DNA of 16,178 nucleotides. Source: a virus. Location of the stretch: UHGV virus genome UHGV-1561483; one strand, 5' to 3'. Both the position numbers and the translations under genes were made by a program. Of this stretch, positions 7,607 through 14,654 are shown one piece after another; positions within the stretch are counted from its first letter, which is position 1, and each line of letters opens with the position of its first letter. The notes below the pieces were generated by a model. That model saw only the letters and a list, made by a program, of their open reading frames with translations. It did no database searches and was not told the origin of the DNA.

Positions 7607-8608
7607 ATGACTCGTAACGAATATATCAAATCATTCAATAGCGTTATTGATGATAAAGCTATACCGATGTTTGGCCAAAATAGCGTTCTTTCTATTATCA
7701 ATCAATGGCTCAATAGTGTTGATGCAAGTATTGTTTCTTCTACTAAATTTATTCATGAAATTCGTAAAATTTCTAGCCGTGTAGATAAAGATGTTATCAA
7801 GAAAACCTTTAAAGAGTCTCGTCTTCTTTCATATTTGGTTAATCGGGATATTCTTGGTAATTTTGGGAAAGAAATTAAACGAACCAAAGATGTAGTAGGA
7901 TATAATTGGTTCGGTGATGTTAATTCTTATCATCTTAATAATAAAGAAGACCCTGAGAATATTTTTACTCGTCGTTGGATTAGTAATTTCAGACTTTTCA
8001 AAGGACAGATTCTAAAATCAGCTTCTAAATTATGTTATGGCGATTATCGTCAAATTCATCCTTTGGCTTCTGATATGATTATCATAAAAGAATATGAACT
8101 TGATAAAAATAAAGTATCTATTTTTGTGAATTATGGATTTTTTACACCAGAAACTAACCAAAAGAATATTAATAAATTTTTCTCAATTGCTAGCACTATA
8201 ACTCGTCAATTAGAGACCGCATTACTTTGTATGGAAACAGTAGAAAATATTCATACATATCCTTTTAAGAATATATGCGGATGGGAAGGATATAAAATTG
8301 TAATTAGTCTTCGTGAAGTGAAATGTGCTTATTCACCTACTGATAAAGAAATTTATCAACAAAAATGTGAGGAAATTGTGAATACTCCTAAAGAAGAAAC
8401 TACCCTTGAGGAACTAATGGATAATCTTGATGATTCGCCTGAACCGGTAGAAATTCGTCCAGAAGTTATTGCACTAGAAAAAGCTTATAAAGAAGTTCTA
8501 GAAATTTCTAATAAAGCACAGAAAGAATATGAGCAGGCTAAAAGGATTTGGGAAGAATCTGTTAATCGTCTTGATCGTCTGGAACAAGCTTTACAGTTAA
8601 TTAAGTAA
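7607..8608 (+). CDS. hypothetical protein, paralog family member 3 (333 aa)
   Basis: ORF-track start 7577 sits inside the TATAAT; ATG 7607 follows GAGGAG (7596-7601). N-terminus MTRNEYIKSFNS resembles member 4; internal motif LFKGQILKSASKLCYGD; linker SPEPVEIRPEV; C-terminal coiled coil. Confidence 0.7.
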   Translation: MTRNEYIKSFNSVIDDKAIPMFGQNSVLSIINQWLNSVDASIVSSTKFIHEIRKISSRVDKDVIKKTFKESRLLSYLVNRDILGNFGKEIKRTKDVVGYNWFGDVNSYHLNNKEDPENIFTRRWISNFRLFKGQILKSASKLCYGDYRQIHPLASDMIIIKEYELDKNKVSIFVNYGFFTPETNQKNINKFFSIASTITRQLETALLCMETVENIHTYPFKNICGWEGYKIVISLREVKCAYSPTDKEIYQQKCEEIVNTPKEETTLEELMDNLDDSPEPVEIRPEVIALEKAYKEVLEISNKAQKEYEQAKRIWEESVNRLDRLEQALQLIK

Positions 8609-8660
8609 TTTAAAGCCAAGGATGGCTCGGAGTATAAACTATTAACCAAGTGAGAAGAAC

Positions 8661-9587
8661 ATGAAAACTCGTAAACATTATATTGATTATTTTGACAGTC
8701 TTATTACTAAACATCGTAATTATCAGATAGGACACAGAGCAGTAATCAATAATATTCTTCGTGATTTTTTAGACTATATTGGATGGGAAAACCATATTTG
8801 TAAAGATACACAAAATGCGTATTCACATTCTCTTGGTTCTTTGCTCGAGTGGTTCAAACGTTCCCGATTACTATCTTCTGTGATAGCTGTTAATAATGTT
8901 AAAAAATTTATGTATCCAAGCTACATTGAGACTAATGTATCAAATGCTAGTGTTGTTACATTTAATATTATTAACGACGTGAAAAGAACTTATTTAGAAG
9001 AATGGTTTTCTAAAGATAGTAAAGAAAAATTTGCCAGTGAGTTTTCACACGAATTTAATAATAATGTGAATATGCTTTTTAAGCATTCTCGTAGACTGTT
9101 TTGTCATGGCGATGACCGTACTATTAATGTAAATGTAAAAGATTGGGTTACGGCTAAATTCATTCCATCATCACAGAATGGACCATTTGAATTGTCAATT
9201 ATTGTTTGTGCTCCGCATGAAATATATAAAAATATTCCATATATGAAACCATGTGAAGCTAATAAACATAATAAAACGATTCGTTCTTTGACTTATAATC
9301 TTCGTACGTTATTGTCTAAAATGGACGTAGTTGAATCCTTTGATGATAATACGAATTATGGTCTTTCACTATTTGAAACTAAAGTTGTTATTAAGTTAAA
9401 GGACCCTAGTAAATTTAAACCTACGCCAAAGCCCAATCGTGGGAATGATACTATGAAAGAAGAACGCGAATATCTCAGTGCTCGTTTGATTGAAGTTGAA
9501 AAACAGATTGAAGAGCATACTAAAGTTATTAAGGCTTTAACTGCCAAAGCAAATGGTTTACGTGATGCTATTGAGGTACTGAAATGA
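8661..9587 (+). CDS. hypothetical protein, paralog family member 4 (308 aa)
   Basis: N-terminus MKTRKHYIDYFDS, internal motif LFKHSRRLFCHGDD, linker PSKFKPTPKPN, heptad-like C-terminal helix. Weak RBS. Confidence 0.65.
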   Translation: MKTRKHYIDYFDSLITKHRNYQIGHRAVINNILRDFLDYIGWENHICKDTQNAYSHSLGSLLEWFKRSRLLSSVIAVNNVKKFMYPSYIETNVSNASVVTFNIINDVKRTYLEEWFSKDSKEKFASEFSHEFNNNVNMLFKHSRRLFCHGDDRTINVNVKDWVTAKFIPSSQNGPFELSIIVCAPHEIYKNIPYMKPCEANKHNKTIRSLTYNLRTLLSKMDVVESFDDNTNYGLSLFETKVVIKLKDPSKFKPTPKPNRGNDTMKEEREYLSARLIEVEKQIEEHTKVIKALTAKANGLRDAIEVLK

Positions 9588-9901
9588 AAAAGCGTTTATT
9601 AGAAGATATTGCAGCTTCAAGTAATTCCAGTCTAATTAAAATTATTATGGCTGGTGAAGAAGACGATCTGGAAATGCGTGGAAAGATTCATGGTTGTGAC
9701 GATTTAGATTTTAAACCTCCAGCTTGGGATGCCATTATGGCTATGGTTGAACGTCGCGAAAGGGCTTCTAAAAGCGTTCCTAATTGTCCTGAATGCGGTA
9801 CTGAACAGGTTCAATTAGTCCATTGGCAGACTAGTAATCTTCGTTATAAATGCCGTCATTGCAAACACCGATTTAACCGAGAAGAAAATGACCAAGCGTA
9901 A
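9584..9901 (+). CDS. small zinc-ribbon protein (105 aa)
   Basis: CPECG-x17-CRHCKH cysteine pairs at the C-terminus; ATGA overlap with upstream stop, GAGGT RBS. Confidence 0.6.
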
Positions 9902-10130
9902 AGAATATATGGAGATTGCTGAAAAGGCAGTACGTGAATTAGCAATAGCATATTATAATGAACATGGTAAATTTCCTGATAGATACAGCGTGCTTAAATC
10001 TGCTTTAACTCGTTCATATAAAAATATGCTATCAGAAGTAAGTGATATTATATACAAACATAAAGAACAAACGGGCCAAAGTCTTGATTACGACGAGACT
10101 TTTAAACAAGTACTAGGAATTAAGGAATAA
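9888..10130 (+). CDS. hypothetical protein (80 aa)
   Basis: ATG 9888 overlaps the upstream gene by 14 nt; ends 1 nt before nrdC. Confidence 0.5.
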
Positions 10131-10131
10131 T

Positions 10132-10395
10132 ATGTTTAAAGTATATGGTTATGATAGCAACATCCATAAATGTGTGTATTGCGATAATGCAAAACGTCTT
10201 TTGACTGTGAAGAAACAGCCGTTTGAATTTATCAATATTATGCCGGAAAAAGGTGTTTTTGATGATGAGAAAATCGCTGAGCTTCTGACGAAACTAGGTC
10301 GTGATACTCAAATTGGTTTGACAATGCCACAAGTATTTGCTCCTGATGGAAGTCATATTGGCGGATTTGACCAATTGCGGGAATACTTTAAATGA
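10132..10395 (+). CDS. nrdC: thioredoxin/glutaredoxin (hydrogen donor for ribonucleotide reductase)
   Basis: 87-aa ORF with CVYC active site at residues 14-17 and AAGGA RBS; length and sequence match my recollection of T-even NrdC. Confidence 0.88.
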   Translation: MFKVYGYDSNIHKCVYCDNAKRLLTVKKQPFEFINIMPEKGVFDDEKIAELLTKLGRDTQIGLTMPQVFAPDGSHIGGFDQLREYFK

Positions 10396-10607
10396 TGCTC
10401 GAAGGAACTGATTATATCCATGACTACCGCGGAAGCGCGGTATATGTAGGTGATGAGGTTGCAGTTTATTACGGGTATGGAACTTTGATGACAGCAAAGG
10501 TTATTCAAATTAAAAATAACCGTGCTAAACTCGAAGTTTATTATTCTAATGGTGAAAAGTCTATTTCTAAGTGGAAATACGGCGATTGCATGGTCAAACT
10601 GGGGTAA
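10392..10607 (+). CDS. hypothetical small protein (71 aa)
   Basis: ATGA overlap with the nrdC stop. Confidence 0.55.
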   Translation: MMLEGTDYIHDYRGSAVYVGDEVAVYYGYGTLMTAKVIQIKNNRAKLEVYYSNGEKSISKWKYGDCMVKLG

Positions 10608-10609
10608 AT

Positions 10610-10780
10610 ATGATTTACGATATTAATGTAGCAAGAGCTCCGTCAATGGTTACTATTCCAGCTGAAGAATTAGATCGTCTTCAGAAAATTGAAGAGCTTC
10701 TTTGGGAAATTGAATCTGATTTGCCATCAGGATTAGAATCCTGGATTGACTATGAAGAACTTAATAAATTGCGAAATTAA
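10610..10780 (+). CDS. hypothetical small acidic protein (56 aa)
   Basis: ORF-track start 10571 is GTG inside the previous gene; ATG 10610 lies 2 nt after the upstream stop. Confidence 0.45.
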   Translation: MIYDINVARAPSMVTIPAEELDRLQKIEELLWEIESDLPSGLESWIDYEELNKLRN

Positions 10781-10790
10781 GTGGTGACAA

Positions 10791-11111
10791 ATGACTATTG
10801 AAAATAAATTAGATGTTGATGCAGTTCTGAGTGAAATCATTGAAGACCATGATGCATTTTCAGAAAACTATGATTTCGATTTTTCCGATTATCTTAAACC
10901 TATCGAAATAGAAGACTGGGTGCAAGATGGTAAATGCCAATATCGTCAGTGTGTTTATTTTAGTCCAAAACATAATGTACATGTGGCTGTAAATGAATCT
11001 CGCTCAGGTTCTTATCATTCTGACTGGTATTATGCAGTTCCGACTGTTGAACTAGTCGAGCCCCATGAACGTGTAGTAACTCAGACAGTACGAGAATGGA
11101 TTACGCTATAA
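10791..11111 (+). CDS. hypothetical acidic protein (106 aa)
   Basis: ATG 10791 after GGTGA; same-strand operon context. Confidence 0.55.
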   Translation: MTIENKLDVDAVLSEIIEDHDAFSENYDFDFSDYLKPIEIEDWVQDGKCQYRQCVYFSPKHNVHVAVNESRSGSYHSDWYYAVPTVELVEPHERVVTQTVREWITL

Positions 11112-11251
11112 AACCTTGGTGGGCGGCTAGATGGGAAACTGTAGAGCCAGAGCCGGAAGAACCGGTTTACACTGATGAAGAAACAGTATATAATGAACCA
11201 ACGATAAATGACTTAATTGATATGGAGATGGGACATGATTACAGTAGATAA
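11096..11251 (+). CDS. possible small acidic ORF (51 aa), below the ORF-track size cutoff
   Basis: ATG 11096 to TAA 11249-11251 fills an otherwise apparently non-coding 120-bp gap; overlaps both neighbours by about 16 nt; weak RBS. Confidence 0.25.
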   Translation: MDYAIKPWWAARWETVEPEPEEPVYTDEETVYNEPTINDLIDMEMGHDYSR

Positions 11252-11681
11252 GTGGTTTAGAATTAATCGTGCTGATAAAGGGCTGTGTAATTACTGGCCG
11301 GAACTTAGTGCAGGTACTGTCTTTAAAGTTCGTGAACTTGCAAAAGAATGCGAAGATGATATAGAACCTGATACTGGAATTATTGAAATTGAACTTTCTG
11401 ATGGAAAGATTATTAACATCTACGATAAGCCAATTACGTATTGGTGTTTGTGGAATACTGAATCAGTAGAAAATGGTGAAATTGAAGAAGTCGTAGAACG
11501 AGTTGATCAAGCTATTCATAAACCTAAAGCCGCTTTTCAAGGTGAACGCATTTCATATGCATTATCTAAATCGGCGTTGAAAAAAGATATTGATGATTAC
11601 GAAGGAAATTTAATGCAAGCCGCGGCAGAATATATTGAATGGCTTGAAACTCAAATTTCTTTTTCTGACCGAGCGTTTTAA
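11235..11681 (+). CDS. hypothetical protein (148 aa); sits where I recall T4 pin (Lon protease inhibitor), by position only
   Basis: ORF-track start 11217 is TTG; ATG 11235 follows GGAG (11224-11227). The pin assignment rests only on my recollection of T4 gene order upstream of gene 49. Confidence 0.55.
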   Translation: MITVDKWFRINRADKGLCNYWPELSAGTVFKVRELAKECEDDIEPDTGIIEIELSDGKIINIYDKPITYWCLWNTESVENGEIEEVVERVDQAIHKPKAAFQGERISYALSKSALKKDIDDYEGNLMQAAAEYIEWLETQISFSDRAF

Positions 11682-11857
11682 TGAAAACCGAATTAATTTA
11701 TACTGAAAAGTTAAATGGTGGTAAGGTTTGGAAACTTTTTATTAAAGGAAGTCCTACTGACCCTAATATGACCACTTGTATAGGAACTTATTCTCGTCCT
11801 ACTAAAAAGATGATTCGACAATATAAGCGATTGCATCAAATGTTTTACAATACTTGA
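11681..11857 (+). CDS. possible small ORF (58 aa), below the ORF-track size cutoff
   Basis: ATG 11681 overlaps the upstream stop (TAATG); ends at TGA 11855-11857 just before the gene 49 leader hairpin. Confidence 0.35.
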   Translation: MKTELIYTEKLNGGKVWKLFIKGSPTDPNMTTCIGTYSRPTKKMIRQYKRLHQMFYNT

Positions 11858-11861
11858 AAAT

Positions 11862-11893
11862 AATAAATACCCTTATCTATTCAAGGTAAGGGT
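11862..11893 (+). promoter_or_regulatory. gene 49 leader: late-promoter-like AATAAATA followed by a hairpin that pairs the Shine-Dalgarno of gene 49
   Basis: AATAAATA 11862-11869 (7/8 to the T4 late TATAAATA). Stem ACCCTTA (11869-11875) / TAAGGGT (11887-11893) with an 11-nt loop; the 3' arm contains the AAGGG SD located 7 nt before ATG 11900. Confidence 0.5.
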
Positions 11894-11899
11894 TTTATT

Positions 11900-12373
11900 A
11901 TGTTATTGACTGGCAAATTATACAAAGAAGAAAAACAGAAATTTTATAATGCACAAAACGGTAAATGCTTAATTTGCCAACGAGAACTAAATCCTGATGT
12001 TCAAGCTAATCACCTTGACCATGACCATGAATTAAATGGACCAAAAGCAGGAAAGGTACGTGGATTGCTCTGTAATCTCTGTAATGCTGCAGAAGGTCAA
12101 ATGAAGCATAAATTCAATCGTTCTGGCTTAAAGGGACAAGGTGTTGATTATCTTGAATGGCTAGAAAATTTACTTACTTATTTAAAATCCGATTACACCC
12201 AAAATAATATTCACCCTAACTTCGTTGGAGATAAATCAAAGGAATTTTCTCGTTTAGGAAAAGAGGAAATGATGGCTGAGATGCTTCAAAGAGGATTTGA
12301 ATATAATGAATCTGACACTAAAACACAATTAATAGCTTCATTTAAGAAGCAGCTTAGAAAGAGTTTAAAATGA
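11900..12373 (+). CDS. 49: endonuclease VII (Holliday-junction resolving / packaging endonuclease)
   Basis: 157-aa ORF; N-terminus MLLTGKLYKEEKQKF recognised; Zn ligands Cys23, Cys26, Cys58, Cys61 and catalytic Asp40/His41/Asn62/Glu65 all at the positions known for T4 endo VII. Confidence 0.92.
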   Translation: MLLTGKLYKEEKQKFYNAQNGKCLICQRELNPDVQANHLDHDHELNGPKAGKVRGLLCNLCNAAEGQMKHKFNRSGLKGQGVDYLEWLENLLTYLKSDYTQNNIHPNFVGDKSKEFSRLGKEEMMAEMLQRGFEYNESDTKTQLIASFKKQLRKSLK

Positions 12374-14187
12374 CAATTGAAAAAGAAATTGAAGGATTGA
12401 TTCATAAAACTAATAAAGACCTTTTAAACGAGAATGCTAATAAAGATTCTCGTGTTTTTCCAACTCAACGGGACCTTATGGCTGGTATTGTGTCTAAACA
12501 CATTGCCAAAAATATGGTCCCGTCTTTTATTATGAAAGCGCATGAAAGCGGAATTATCCATTTCCATGATATTGATTATTCCCCTGCTCTTCCATTTACT
12601 AATTGCTGTTTAGTAGATTTAAAAGGAATGCTTGAAAACGGATTTAAGCTCGGTAATGCACAGATTGAAACTCCTAAATCAATCGGCGTTGCTACTGCAA
12701 TTATGGCACAAATTACTGCACAGGTTGCTTCTCATCAATATGGCGGAACGACTTTTGCGAATGTAGATAAAGTACTTTCTCCTTATGTTAAACGCACCTA
12801 CGCGAAACATATTGAGGACGCGGAAAAATGGCAAATCGCTGATGCGTTGAATTACGCCCAGTCTAAAACAGAAAAAGACGTATATGATGCATTCCAAGCT
12901 TATGAATATGAAGTAAATACTCTCTTTAGTTCAAACGGACAAACGCCTTTTGTAACAATTACGTTTGGTACGGGAACTGACTGGACTGAACGAATGATTC
13001 AGAAGGCAATTCTGAAAAATCGTATTAAAGGTCTTGGTCGCGATGGGATAACTCCTATTTTCCCTAAGCTTGTTATGTTCGTTGAAGAAGGTGTTAATCT
13101 TTATAAAGATGACCCGAACTATGATATTAAACAGCTTGCTCTAGAGTGCGCAAGCAAAAGAATGTATCCTGACATCATTTCGGCTAAGAACAATAAAGCT
13201 ATCACCGGTTCATCTATTCCTGTTTCTCCAATGGGTTGCCGCAGTTTCTTGAGCGTATGGAAAGATTCGACTGGCAATGAAATTCTTGATGGACGTAATA
13301 ATCTTGGTGTTGTAACATTGAATCTTCCTCGCATCGCGTTAGATTCTTATATTGGAACACAATTCAATGAACAGAAATTTGTTGAATTGTTCAATGAACG
13401 AATGGATTTGTGTTTTGAAGCTTTGATGTGTAGAATTAGTTCCTTAAAAGGAGTTAAAGCGACTGTTGCTCCTATTCTTTACCAAGAAGGTGCATTCGGG
13501 GTTCGTCTTAAACCCGATGACGACATAATTGAGTTATTTAAAAACGGTAGAAGTTCAGTGTCTTTGGGATACATTGGTATTCACGAATTGAATATTCTTG
13601 TCGGTCGTGATATTGGGCAGGAAATTTTAACTAAAATGAATGCTCGTCTTAAGCAGTGGACTGAAAGAACCGGTTTTGCTTTTAGCTTGTATTCTACTCC
13701 TGCTGAAAACCTGTGCTATCGCTTCTGTAAACTTGATACTGAGAAATATGGAAGTGTAAAAGATGTTACTGATAAAGGATGGTACACTAATAGTTTCCAT
13801 GTTTCAGTAGAAGAAAATATCACTCCGTTTGAAAAGATTTCTCGAGAAGCACCATATCATTTCATTGCGACAGGTGGTCACATTTCTTATGTTGAACTTC
13901 CTGATATGAAAAATAACTTAAAAGGTCTTGAGGCTGTATGGGATTATGCTGCACAACATTTAGATTATTTTGGCGTTAACATGCCAGTAGATAAATGTTT
14001 TACATGTGGAAGTACCCATGAAATGACTCCTACTGAAAACGGGTTTGTTTGTTCTATTTGTGGAGAAACTGATCCTAAAAAGATGAACACAATAAGAAGA
14101 ACTTGTGGTTATTTGGGAAATCCGAACGAACGTGGATTTAATCTTGGCAAAAATAAAGAAATCATGCATAGGGTTAAACACCAATGA
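12370..14187 (+). CDS. nrdD: anaerobic (class III) ribonucleoside-triphosphate reductase, uninterrupted
   Basis: 605-aa ORF; C-terminal zinc ribbon CFTC-x14-CSIC at residues 543-564 and glycyl-radical motif RRTCGYLG with Gly580 (nt 14107-14109), matching T4 NrdD numbering. ATGA overlaps with gene 49 and nrdG. Confidence 0.95.
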   Translation: MTIEKEIEGLIHKTNKDLLNENANKDSRVFPTQRDLMAGIVSKHIAKNMVPSFIMKAHESGIIHFHDIDYSPALPFTNCCLVDLKGMLENGFKLGNAQIETPKSIGVATAIMAQITAQVASHQYGGTTFANVDKVLSPYVKRTYAKHIEDAEKWQIADALNYAQSKTEKDVYDAFQAYEYEVNTLFSSNGQTPFVTITFGTGTDWTERMIQKAILKNRIKGLGRDGITPIFPKLVMFVEEGVNLYKDDPNYDIKQLALECASKRMYPDIISAKNNKAITGSSIPVSPMGCRSFLSVWKDSTGNEILDGRNNLGVVTLNLPRIALDSYIGTQFNEQKFVELFNERMDLCFEALMCRISSLKGVKATVAPILYQEGAFGVRLKPDDDIIELFKNGRSSVSLGYIGIHELNILVGRDIGQEILTKMNARLKQWTERTGFAFSLYSTPAENLCYRFCKLDTEKYGSVKDVTDKGWYTNSFHVSVEENITPFEKISREAPYHFIATGGHISYVELPDMKNNLKGLEAVWDYAAQHLDYFGVNMPVDKCFTCGSTHEMTPTENGFVCSICGETDPKKMNTIRRTCGYLGNPNERGFNLGKNKEIMHRVKHQ

Positions 14188-14654
14188 ATTATGATAGATT
14201 TTATCCTTGCGATTTTGTGAATGGCCCTGGATGCAGGGTCGTTCTTTTCGTTACAGGTTGTTTGCATAAATGCGAAGGGTGTTATAATAAATCAACATGG
14301 AATGCTAGAAATGGCGTTCCATTCACTGGTGAAACACTAGAACAATTAATTGAATGTTTGAATAATGATTATATAGAAGGATTAACTATAACTGGAGGTG
14401 ACCCTCTTTATCCTGATAACCGAGATGTTATTCATTGCATTGTTCAAACAGTAAAAAATCTTTATCCGAATAAAAGCATTTGGTTGTGGACCGGATATAA
14501 GTTTGAGGATATTAAACAACTAGAAATGCTTAAATATGTTGATGTTATTATTGATGGGAAGTATGAGAAAAATCTTCCGACCAAAAAGCTGTGGCGAGGA
14601 TCAGATAATCAGCGACTTTGGTCAAATACCGATGGGGTGTGGAAACATGATTAA
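14184..14654 (+). CDS. nrdG: anaerobic ribonucleotide reductase activating protein (radical SAM)
   Basis: 156-aa ORF; CLHKCEGC (CxxxCxxC) cluster near the N-terminus; ATGA-coupled to nrdD. Confidence 0.92.
   Translation: MNYDRFYPCDFVNGPGCRVVLFVTGCLHKCEGCYNKSTWNARNGVPFTGETLEQLIECLNNDYIEGLTITGGDPLYPDNRDVIHCIVQTVKNLYPNKSIWLWTGYKFEDIKQLEMLKYVDVIIDGKYEKNLPTKKLWRGSDNQRLWSNTDGVWKHD

What the first reader, a model, noticed from the sequence alone, without database searches (positions are those of the whole stretch)
11862..12373. Gene 49 leader hairpin sequestering its Shine-Dalgarno, with a late-promoter-like box and an internal in-frame start
A 7-bp stem (ACCCTTA / TAAGGGT) pairs the AAGGG SD of gene 49. 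The upstream AATAAATA is 7/8 identical to the T4 late promoter TATAAATA and would place a late transcript start inside the hairpin, freeing the SD. Inside the gene, an in-frame ATG at 12101 (Met68) is preceded by GAAGG and would give a nested 90-aa product. This matches the published description of T4 gene 49 (translation blocked on long early transcripts, released on late transcripts, two nested products), so it is a sanity check rather than a novelty; the features are directly visible here.
Basis: partly seen in the sequence, partly recalled or inferred. Interest (0 to 1): 0.4.

Follow-up and report, generated by a model that had tools for sequence, protein, structure and literature searches.

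The report
Gene 49 leader: late-only translation switch
This is the known control region of the T4-type DNA-junction-cutting enzyme gene: an RNA hairpin hides the ribosome site on early transcripts and an embedded late promoter removes it. The second, shorter protein described for T4 cannot start at the published position in this phage.

Summary
The window comes from a Tequatrovirus, 99.1% identical to Escherichia phage JLBYU31. Gene 49 (endonuclease VII, 11900-12373) differs from T4 gp49 at one residue.

**Hairpin: real, and larger than reported.**
- It buries the Shine-Dalgarno sequence and the first two bases of the AUG.
- It is the most occluded start site of 30 plus-strand ORFs in the window.

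**Late promoter: well supported by sequence.**
- AATAAATA (11862-11869) is the only WATAAATA in 16 kb, against 6.6 expected.
- It is the commonest T4 late-promoter variant and predicts a transcript start at 11875.
- The predicted SD unpaired probability jumps from 0.00 to 0.74 at that position.
- A late box followed by an SD-sequestering hairpin recurs in all 67 related loci examined, out to Aeh1, RB43 and Acinetobacter phages, with compensatory base changes.

**Nested start: wrongly assigned.**
- T4's annotated 105-aa product starts at GTG codon 53, not Met68.
- That codon is GTA here and varies freely among relatives.
- The GAAGG before Met68 is dictated by the invariant Glu65-Gly66 codons.

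Verdict: known biology, correctly recognised apart from the internal start. Low interest.

The parts
11166..11194 (+). Sigma-70-type early promoter (TTTACA-17-TATAAT) upstream of pin. It is the likely source of long read-through transcripts that carry the complete gene 49 hairpin.
   Evidence: It is the best promoter-like site in the 8000-14500 scan, matching 11 of 12 positions. It aligns with 'early promoter P1' annotated in T4 record Y00122.1.
11862..11869 (+). T4-type late promoter box AATAAATA, the A(-13) variant of TATAAATA. It is embedded in the 5' arm of the hairpin.
   Evidence: It is the only WATAAATA in the window, against 6.55 expected. A(-13) occurs at 9 of 50 T4 late promoters (PMC2988020). 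T4 has the same box at the same place. A TAAATA-type box lies in the 60 nt upstream of gene 49 in all 67 related loci, at 24-33 nt from the start codon in the 44 loci where that start is firmly placed. An equivalent box is annotated as a late promoter in OL960576.1.
11875..11875 (+). Predicted late transcript 5' end (+1), inferred from the box occupying -13..-6.
   Evidence: The position rule comes from PMC1524935. The SD unpaired probability is 0.00 for 5' ends at or before 11870, 0.23 at 11872, 0.49 at 11873, and 0.74 at 11875. No transcript data exist for this phage.
11860..11901 (+). RNA hairpin of 18 bp. The 5' arm is 11860-11878 with a bulged U at 11868, the loop is 11879-11883, and the 3' arm is 11884-11901. 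It occludes the SD and the first two bases of the AUG on long transcripts.
   Evidence: MFE is -17.7 kcal/mol with z = -5.35, and the same helix forms in 91-nt and 150-nt contexts. The inverted repeats were also found. Across 31 unique leaders the core 10-bp helix is 88.6% paired, and 6 of 10 pairs change on both sides. There are 63 compensatory cells against 18.3 +/- 5.3 in shuffles. A covariance model built from those leaders hits the window only here.
11888..11892 (+). Shine-Dalgarno sequence AAGGG of gene 49, lying in the 3' arm.
   Evidence: Read directly from the sequence. Unpaired probability is 0.00 in long transcripts.
11900..12373 (+). Gene 49, recombination endonuclease VII, 157 aa. 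Its stop codon overlaps the nrdD start (ATGA at 12370-12373).
   Evidence: ORF. Pfam PF02945 and PF09124 match. PDB 1e7d/1en7 match at E = 1.3e-104. It differs from T4 gp49 at one residue, D17N.
12056..12058 (+). Codon 53 (Val), GTA in this phage. In T4 this codon is GTG, the annotated start of the nested 105-aa product. That start is therefore absent here.
   Evidence: T4 carries two gene 49 CDSs, compared with the window sequence. In the phage collection the exact 30-mer occurs with GTA in 282 records and with GTG in 95. Across 68 diverse CDSs the codon is GTT 33, GTG 15, GTA 10, GTC 7.
12092..12103 (+). It is present but has no support as an initiation site.
   Evidence: GAAGG is made of the Glu65 and Gly66 codons, which are invariant residues. 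Only 4 nt separate it from the ATG. Synonymous sites nearby show no extra constraint. Met68 is replaced by Ile, Thr or Val in 5 of 46 relatives.

Best explanation
This is a temporal translation switch for endonuclease VII, the same one described for T4 gene 49.

Early and middle period:
- Host-sigma RNA polymerase starts far upstream, for example at the conserved promoter at 11166-11194.
- It reads through pin and the 58-aa ORF into gene 49.
- On these long RNAs the 18-bp hairpin (11860-11901) forms. It buries the Shine-Dalgarno sequence and part of the AUG, so ribosomes cannot initiate.

Late period:
- Polymerase carrying the late sigma factor gp55 recognises AATAAATA (11862-11869), which lies inside the DNA that encodes the 5' arm.
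- It starts at about 11875, so the late mRNA lacks 15 of the 19 nucleotides of the 5' arm (11860-11874).
- The hairpin cannot form, the SD is free, and full-length gp49 is made when branched DNA must be resolved before packaging.

Shown here:
- The predicted structure and its statistics.
- The 5'-end dependence of SD accessibility.
- The uniqueness of the late box in the window.
- Covariation of the stem, and conservation of the box-plus-hairpin arrangement across T4-like phages.

Inferred:
- The actual late 5' end and the translational effect in this phage. These rest on near-identity to T4, where the literature reports the mechanism.

The T4 nested 12-kD product that starts at GUG53 is not part of the switch in this phage, because the codon is GUA.
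For: - The hairpin folds at -17.7 kcal/mol with z = -5.35, and it persists in longer contexts.
- The SD unpaired probability is 0.00 for 5' ends from 11201 to 11870. It rises to 0.74 at the predicted late start 11875.
- Gene 49 has the most occluded start site of 30 ORFs in the window.
- The only WATAAATA in 16 kb sits here, against 6.55 expected.
- The T4 leader is identical apart from one loop base and one extra T.
- All 46 loci in the first set have a TAAATA box 24-33 nt before the start codon, abutting a hairpin that engulfs the SD.
- The box tracks each clade's own late consensus. It is CTAAATA in the Aeh1-like loci L043-L046, which matches the reported Aeh1 late consensus (PMC1524935).
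- Covariation: 6 of 10 stem pairs have double changes. The covariation score is 0.489, against 0.193 or less for slid controls.
- A U-G wobble is conserved in 25 of 31 leaders, and the sense strand folds better than the antisense in 64 of 67 loci. Both point to an RNA structure on the mRNA strand.
- Literature: gene 49 is listed with e, soc and I-TevI as having an inhibitory structure at the initiation region (PMC3014915). T4 gene 49 mRNA is classed 'early' by RNA-seq (PMC9697503 supplement).
- The early promoter P1 annotated in T4 is conserved in the window.
Against: - There are no transcript 5'-end, ribosome or protein data for this phage or for its exact leader variant.
- The first three bases after the box are CCC, which is less AT-rich than the downstream segment typical of T4 late promoters (PMC2988020).
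- The primary T4 paper (Barth et al. 1988) is not in the held library, so its details rest on reviews, GenBank annotation and memory.
- In the modelled late transcript the AUG itself is still partly paired, with unpaired probability about 0.16, through weak downstream interactions (MFE -4.6 kcal/mol).
Confidence: 0.85

Rival explanations
1. The hairpin is mainly an intrinsic transcription terminator. It would end the upstream pin / 58-aa-ORF early transcripts before gene 49.
For: The consensus scan flags 11869-11893 followed by TTTATTATGT as terminator-like. GenBank record MK327946.1 annotates the equivalent hairpin as a 'putative transcriptional terminator'.
Against: The T-run is interrupted, and it exists only in the T4-like clade. 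In most other clades the 3' arm runs straight into the ATG with no T-run, as in ...GGTGAACCTATG. What is conserved is the overlap with the SD and AUG and the adjoining late box, not a terminator tail. T4 gene 49 RNA is classed early, which implies read-through. Terminator-like sites in the region are no more frequent than in shuffles, 4 against 3.6.
Confidence: 0.05
2. This phage makes a nested 90-aa C-terminal product from Met68 (12101), using GAAGG as its ribosome site.
For: The ATG and a GAAGG 4 nt upstream are present. ATG68 is kept in 41 of 46 relatives. Because the GUG53 start is missing here, any nested product would need another start.
Against: T4's annotated nested CDS starts at codon 53, not 68. 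GA(A/G)GG is forced by the invariant Glu65-Gly66. The 4-nt spacing is short for an AAGG-type SD (general knowledge). Synonymous variability around codons 60-69 is ordinary. Met68 becomes Ile, Thr or Val in five relatives. Such a product would lack all four Cys residues and the D40, H41, N62 and E65 region.
Confidence: 0.08
3. The inverted repeat acts at the DNA level as a cruciform. It could be a substrate or autoregulatory site for endonuclease VII itself, or it could act on the antisense strand.
For: Endonuclease VII cleaves cruciform and branched DNA (general knowledge). The repeat is an 18-bp palindrome-like element with a 5-nt loop.
Against: A conserved U-G wobble is present at one stem position in 25 of 31 leaders; in DNA or on the antisense strand this would be a mismatch. 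The sense RNA folds more stably than the antisense in 64 of 67 loci, with means of -14.1 and -9.7 kcal/mol. The element always overlaps the SD and start codon, which a DNA role does not explain.
Confidence: 0.01

Closest known systems
Bacteriophage T4 gene 49 leader (Barth, Powell, Trupin and Mosig 1988, Genetics 120:329; cited in PMC2988022 and PMC2988021; summarised in PMC3014915)
   Same: The gene is orthologous, differing at one residue. The late box AATAAATA is the same and the core stem ACCCTTATCT/AGGTAAGGGT is identical. The SD, the upstream early promoter and the downstream nrdD overlap also match.
   Different: The loop is AUUCA here and AUUUA in T4. One extra U in the 3' arm gives an 8-bp outer helix with a 1-nt bulge, against 7 bp with a 2-nt bulge in T4 (-17.7 against -15.9 kcal/mol). 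Codon 53 is GTA rather than GTG, so T4's annotated internal start is missing. A 58-aa DUF7279 ORF lies between pin and gene 49 here, whereas in T4 its tail is fused to pin.
T4 gene e (lysozyme), soc and I-TevI translation-initiation hairpins with embedded late promoters
   Same: The logic is the same. Early read-through transcripts carry a helix that sequesters the SD or AUG, and a late promoter in or next to the 5' arm yields a truncated, translatable mRNA (PMC3014915; PMC2988022).
   Different: The genes and sequences are different, with no sequence homology to this leader. Gene e has two late promoters.
Aeh1 mobE RBS-sequestering hairpin (Gibb and Edgell 2009, cited in PMC2988022)
   Same: A hairpin plus late promoter provides temporal control in a distant T4 relative. 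Here the Aeh1 gene 49 leader (L045) also carries a CTAAATA box followed by a hairpin.
   Different: mobE is a homing endonuclease gene. The gene 49 module of Aeh1 was examined here only in silico.

Membership tests
T4 gene 49 hairpin / late-promoter translational switch | The downstream gene is the endonuclease VII orthologue | tested here: met
   PF02945 matches at 8e-22 and PF09124 at 1.5e-33. PDB 1e7d matches at 1.3e-104 over residues 1-157. The protein differs from T4 gp49 at one residue, D17N.
T4 gene 49 hairpin / late-promoter translational switch | The SD and/or AUG is sequestered in a stable helix on transcripts that start upstream | tested here: met
   In silico only. The helix has 18 bp, -17.7 kcal/mol and z = -5.35. 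SD unpaired probability is 0.00 for 5' ends from 11201 to 11870. Covariation supports the helix.
T4 gene 49 hairpin / late-promoter translational switch | A late promoter is placed so that the late transcript lacks the 5' arm | tested here: inconclusive
   The motif and geometry fit. The box at 11862-11869 predicts +1 at 11875, and the SD unpaired probability from that 5' end is 0.74. The real 5' end cannot be measured with these tools.
T4 gene 49 hairpin / late-promoter translational switch | An upstream early promoter supplies read-through transcripts | tested here: met
   TTTACA-17-TATAAT at 11166-11194 aligns to the annotated T4 early promoter P1. No strong terminator-like site lies between it and gene 49 apart from the hairpin itself. 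This is sequence evidence only.
T4 gene 49 hairpin / late-promoter translational switch | A nested in-frame product starts from the internal GUG at codon 53 (105 aa) | tested here: not met
   Codon 53 is GTA at 12056-12058. T4's second CDS starts at GTG codon 53. In the phage collection GTA occurs in 282 records and GTG in 95.
T4 gene 49 hairpin / late-promoter translational switch | gp49 is translated late but not early in infection | not testable with these tools
   This needs time-resolved protein or ribosome data for this phage.
gp55-dependent T4 late promoter | An 8-bp TATAAATA-type box at -13..-6 | tested here: met
   AATAAATA matches 7 of 8 positions. A(-13) is the commonest variant, at 9 of 50 T4 sites (PMC2988020). 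It is the only WATAAATA in the window.
gp55-dependent T4 late promoter | An AT-rich segment immediately downstream of the box | tested here: inconclusive
   The downstream 10 nt are CCCTTATCTA, which is 6 of 10 A/T and starts with CCC. T4 itself has the same sequence.
Intrinsic (rho-independent) terminator | A GC-rich stem followed by a U-run, conserved as such among relatives | tested here: not met
   The stem has 4 GC pairs out of 10 and the T-run is interrupted. The T-run is absent in most other clades, while the hairpin persists.
Curated Rfam RNA families | A score at or above the family's gathering threshold | tested here: not met
   The best hits are ohsC at 29.3 bits and rnk leader at 22.9 bits, each against a threshold of 50.

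The most novel reading that the evidence does not exclude
The late promoter embedded in an SD-sequestering hairpin upstream of gene 49 may be an ancient, strictly conserved cis-regulatory module of the T4-like phages. It is present in all 67 related loci examined, with about 20 different stem sequences kept paired by compensatory changes, and with the box following each clade's own late consensus. The 'two nested proteins' feature of T4 looks different. It depends on a freely varying synonymous third base (GTG in T4 and T2; GTA, GTT or GTC elsewhere). It may therefore be a lineage-specific by-product rather than a conserved part of endonuclease VII regulation.
Probability: 0.6. Interest if true: 0.3.

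Novelty: already known. Interest (0 to 1): 0.15.

Why it matters
As a sanity check it shows that the first-stage reader can recognise a real, experimentally described regulatory device from raw sequence.

The follow-up adds two modest points.
- The hairpin-plus-late-promoter arrangement for gene 49 is conserved with covariation across the whole T4-like group. This makes it a good positive control for covariation-based detection of translational switches in phage genomes.
- The textbook T4 nested gp49 product cannot arise from the published start in most relatives, this phage included. That argues against transferring the double-CDS annotation of T4 gene 49 to related genomes.

Tried and rejected
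- **Primary paper.** Reading Barth et al. 1988 (PMC1203513), Miller et al. 2003 (PMC150520) and Gibb and Edgell 2009 (PMC2655525) failed. None is in the held library.
- **T4 start-site data.** I looked for a T4 dRNA-seq start-site table in bioRxiv 10.1101/2024.04.04.588121. The held supplement does not contain the table.
- **CM-fitted alignment.** Alignment A2 included 7 reverse-strand hits to the same palindrome-like element. I did not use it for pair counts and used the structure-naive MAFFT alignment A1 instead. A1 misaligns a few 3' arms (L036, L039, L040, L047), so its counts are conservative.
- **More close relatives.** A pattern scan of IMG/VR for the codon 53 context returned only the five close relatives already held. 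The GTA/GTG census therefore used two 30-mer megablast searches of the phage collection.
- **Hidden internal ribosome site.** Per-codon synonymous entropy across 68 gene 49 sequences showed nothing around codons 47-56 or 60-69. UUG at codon 56, which has a well-spaced GGAAAGG, is intact here, but the codon is TTG 28 and TTA 23 of 68 among relatives, so it is not conserved as a start.
- **Terminator, DNA-cruciform and Rfam-family readings.** All three were considered and rejected.

Full report
**What the window is.** The region 11600-12500 matches 752 phage records. The best is Escherichia phage JLBYU31 (Tequatrovirus) at 99.1% over its full length, and T4 matches at about 97% in two pieces. 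The ORF at 11900-12373 encodes 157 aa. It matches Pfam Endonuclease_7 and the endonuclease VII dimerisation domain, and the T4 endonuclease VII crystal structures at E = 1e-104. It differs from T4 gp49 at one residue, D17N. The neighbours are a PinA-family ORF (11217-11681), a 58-aa DUF7279 ORF (11681-11857), and nrdD (12370-14187), whose ATG overlaps the gene 49 stop codon.

**Checking the observation.**
- All the strings are at the stated coordinates.
- The 7-bp stem is the core of a much larger helix. 11860-11905 folds into 18 bp with one bulged U, at -17.7 kcal/mol and z = -5.35, and 0 of 200 shuffles fold as well. The same helix forms in 91-nt and 150-nt contexts.
- The helix covers the SD (11888-11892) and the A and U of the AUG.
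- Among 30 plus-strand ORF starts in the window, gene 49 is the clear outlier. Its mean unpaired probability over -15..+3 is 0.06, and its local MFE is -18.1 against -10.4 for the next.
- AATAAATA at 11862-11869 is the only WATAAATA on either strand of the 16-kb window, where shuffles give 6.55 +/- 2.39. The motif is therefore depleted elsewhere and present exactly here.
- The in-frame ATG at 12101 is codon 68, and GAAGG precedes it by 4 nt.

**How the switch would work.**
- T4 late promoters are an 8-bp box at -13..-6 (PMC1524935).
- 32 of the 50 listed T4 sites are perfect TATAAATA, and 9 have A at -13, which is the variant seen here (PMC2988020). T4 itself has AATAAATA at this site.
- The box position predicts +1 at 11875.
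- I folded transcripts with different 5' ends. The SD unpaired probability is 0.00 for every 5' end from 11201 to 11870. It is 0.23 at 11872, 0.49 at 11873, and 0.74 at 11875.
- The predicted late start therefore sits exactly where the SD becomes accessible.
- Long transcripts plausibly come from the sigma-70-type promoter at 11166-11194. It matches 11 of 12 positions and aligns with 'early promoter P1' annotated in T4 record Y00122.1.
- A T4 time-course study classes gene 49 mRNA as 'early' (PMC9697503 supplement).
- A review lists gene 49 with e, soc and I-TevI as having the SD or AUG sequestered in a helix (PMC3014915).

**Comparative evidence.**
- I collected 44 gene 49 loci from IMG/VR at 50-100% protein identity, and then 23 more with a profile query.
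- Every one has a TAAATA-type box followed by a hairpin whose 3' arm contains the SD and usually reaches the start codon. In the first set of 46 leaders (window, T4 and 44 loci) the box ends 24-33 nt before the start codon. In about ten of the further 23 loci my start-codon placement was uncertain, so distances are not quoted for them.
- The stem sequence differs widely between clades. Examples are ACCCTTATCT, AGGTTCATCT, ACTCTTATCT, ACCTCTATA, AGAGTCAT and ATGACACC.
- The box follows each clade's late consensus. It is CTAAATA in the Aeh1-like loci, which is the reported Aeh1 late-promoter consensus.
- In one locus (L070) the box lies in the loop rather than at the foot of the 5' arm, but the logic is the same.
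- On a structure-naive MAFFT alignment of 31 unique leaders, the 10-bp core helix is 88.6% paired. Six pairs show changes on both sides. There are 63 compensatory cells against 18.3 +/- 5.3 in shuffles. The covariation score is 0.489, against 0.193 or less when partners are slid.
- A U-G wobble is kept in 25 of 31 leaders, and the sense strand folds better than the antisense in 64 of 67 loci. The pairing is therefore in the mRNA, not in DNA or an antisense RNA.
- A covariance model built from these leaders hits the window once, at 11860-11896.
- No Rfam family reaches its threshold.

**The internal start.**
- T4 RefSeq and T4 'wild' both annotate a second gene 49 CDS of 105 aa. It begins at codon 53, a GTG that reads VRGLLC....
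- That gives a product of about 12 kDa, which agrees with my recollection that Barth et al. 1988 describe an AUG and an internal GUG start. The paper could not be read here.
- Met68 would give 90 aa.
- In the window codon 53 is GTA.
- In the phage collection the exact 30-mer context occurs with GTA in 282 records and with GTG in 95, the latter including T4, T2, RB3, RB5 and others.
- Across 68 diverse gene 49 sequences the codon is GTT 33, GTG 15, GTA 10, GTC 7. This is as variable as gene-wide Val usage allows.
- The published nested start is therefore a lineage polymorphism and is absent here.
- For Met68, the GAAGG is made of the invariant Glu65-Gly66 codons and the spacing is only 4 nt.
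- Met68 is Ile, Thr or Val in five relatives, and nearby synonymous sites are unconstrained.
- Nothing supports Met68 as an initiation site, although it cannot be excluded without protein data.

**Rivals.**
- The hairpin is flagged as terminator-like by the scan and is annotated as a terminator in one GenBank record. However, the T-run is clade-specific, while the overlap with the SD and AUG is universal.
- A DNA cruciform role is contradicted by the conserved wobble pair and the strand asymmetry.

**Verdict.**
- The finding is a correct recognition of a known T4 regulatory device in a close T4 relative.
- The hairpin was understated, the late promoter was reasonably called, and the nested start was mis-assigned.
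- Novelty: already known.
- The incremental results are the breadth of conservation of the module and the non-conservation of the nested GUG start.

Noticed in passing
window 11217-11857, compared with L001 1135-1620 (T4): T4 pin appears to be a deletion fusion. The window has a PinA ORF ending ...SFSDRAF*, followed by a separate 58-aa DUF7279 ORF ending ...KKMIRQYKRLHQMFYNT*. T4 pin reads ...SFSDR-MIQQYKRLHQMFYNT*, which is pin joined in frame to the last 15 codons of that ORF. T4, T2 and RB14 match the window in two pieces with about 15% of the query missing.
   Followed up: partly
window 12283-12307 (+), inside the 3' part of gene 49: There is a MotA-type middle-promoter-like motif, TGCTTCA...N...TATAAT (GCTT-N15-TATAAT), identical in T4. 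The same pattern is annotated as a middle promoter in Mosigvirus OL960576.1 and is found in 19 of 67 related loci. It could drive nrdD independently of gene 49 translation.
   Followed up: partly
window 12370-14654: nrdD is an uninterrupted 605-aa ORF here. It has no group I intron or I-TevII, and no mobC lies between nrdD and the next ORF (14184-14654), unlike T4. A strong terminator-like hairpin at 14219-14244 and a promoter-like site at 14261-14288 lie inside or after that next ORF's start.
   Followed up: no
whole window, both strands: The late-promoter octamer WATAAATA is strongly depleted, with 1 occurrence against 6.55 +/- 2.39 expected. This is consistent with selection against stray late promoters in this early-gene region.
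   Followed up: no
L070 541-606: In this distant relative the late box TATAAATA lies in the loop of the SD-sequestering hairpin (CCTCCAATA / TATTGGAGG), rather than at the base of the 5' arm. The geometry differs but the outcome is the same.
   Followed up: no
window 12065-12067 (codon 56, TTG): An in-frame UUG lies 8 nt downstream of GGAAAGG, which is better SD spacing than either GUG53 or AUG68 has. It is intact in both T4 and this phage, but among relatives the codon is TTG 28 and TTA 23 of 68. It is noted only as an untested alternative internal start.
   Followed up: partly
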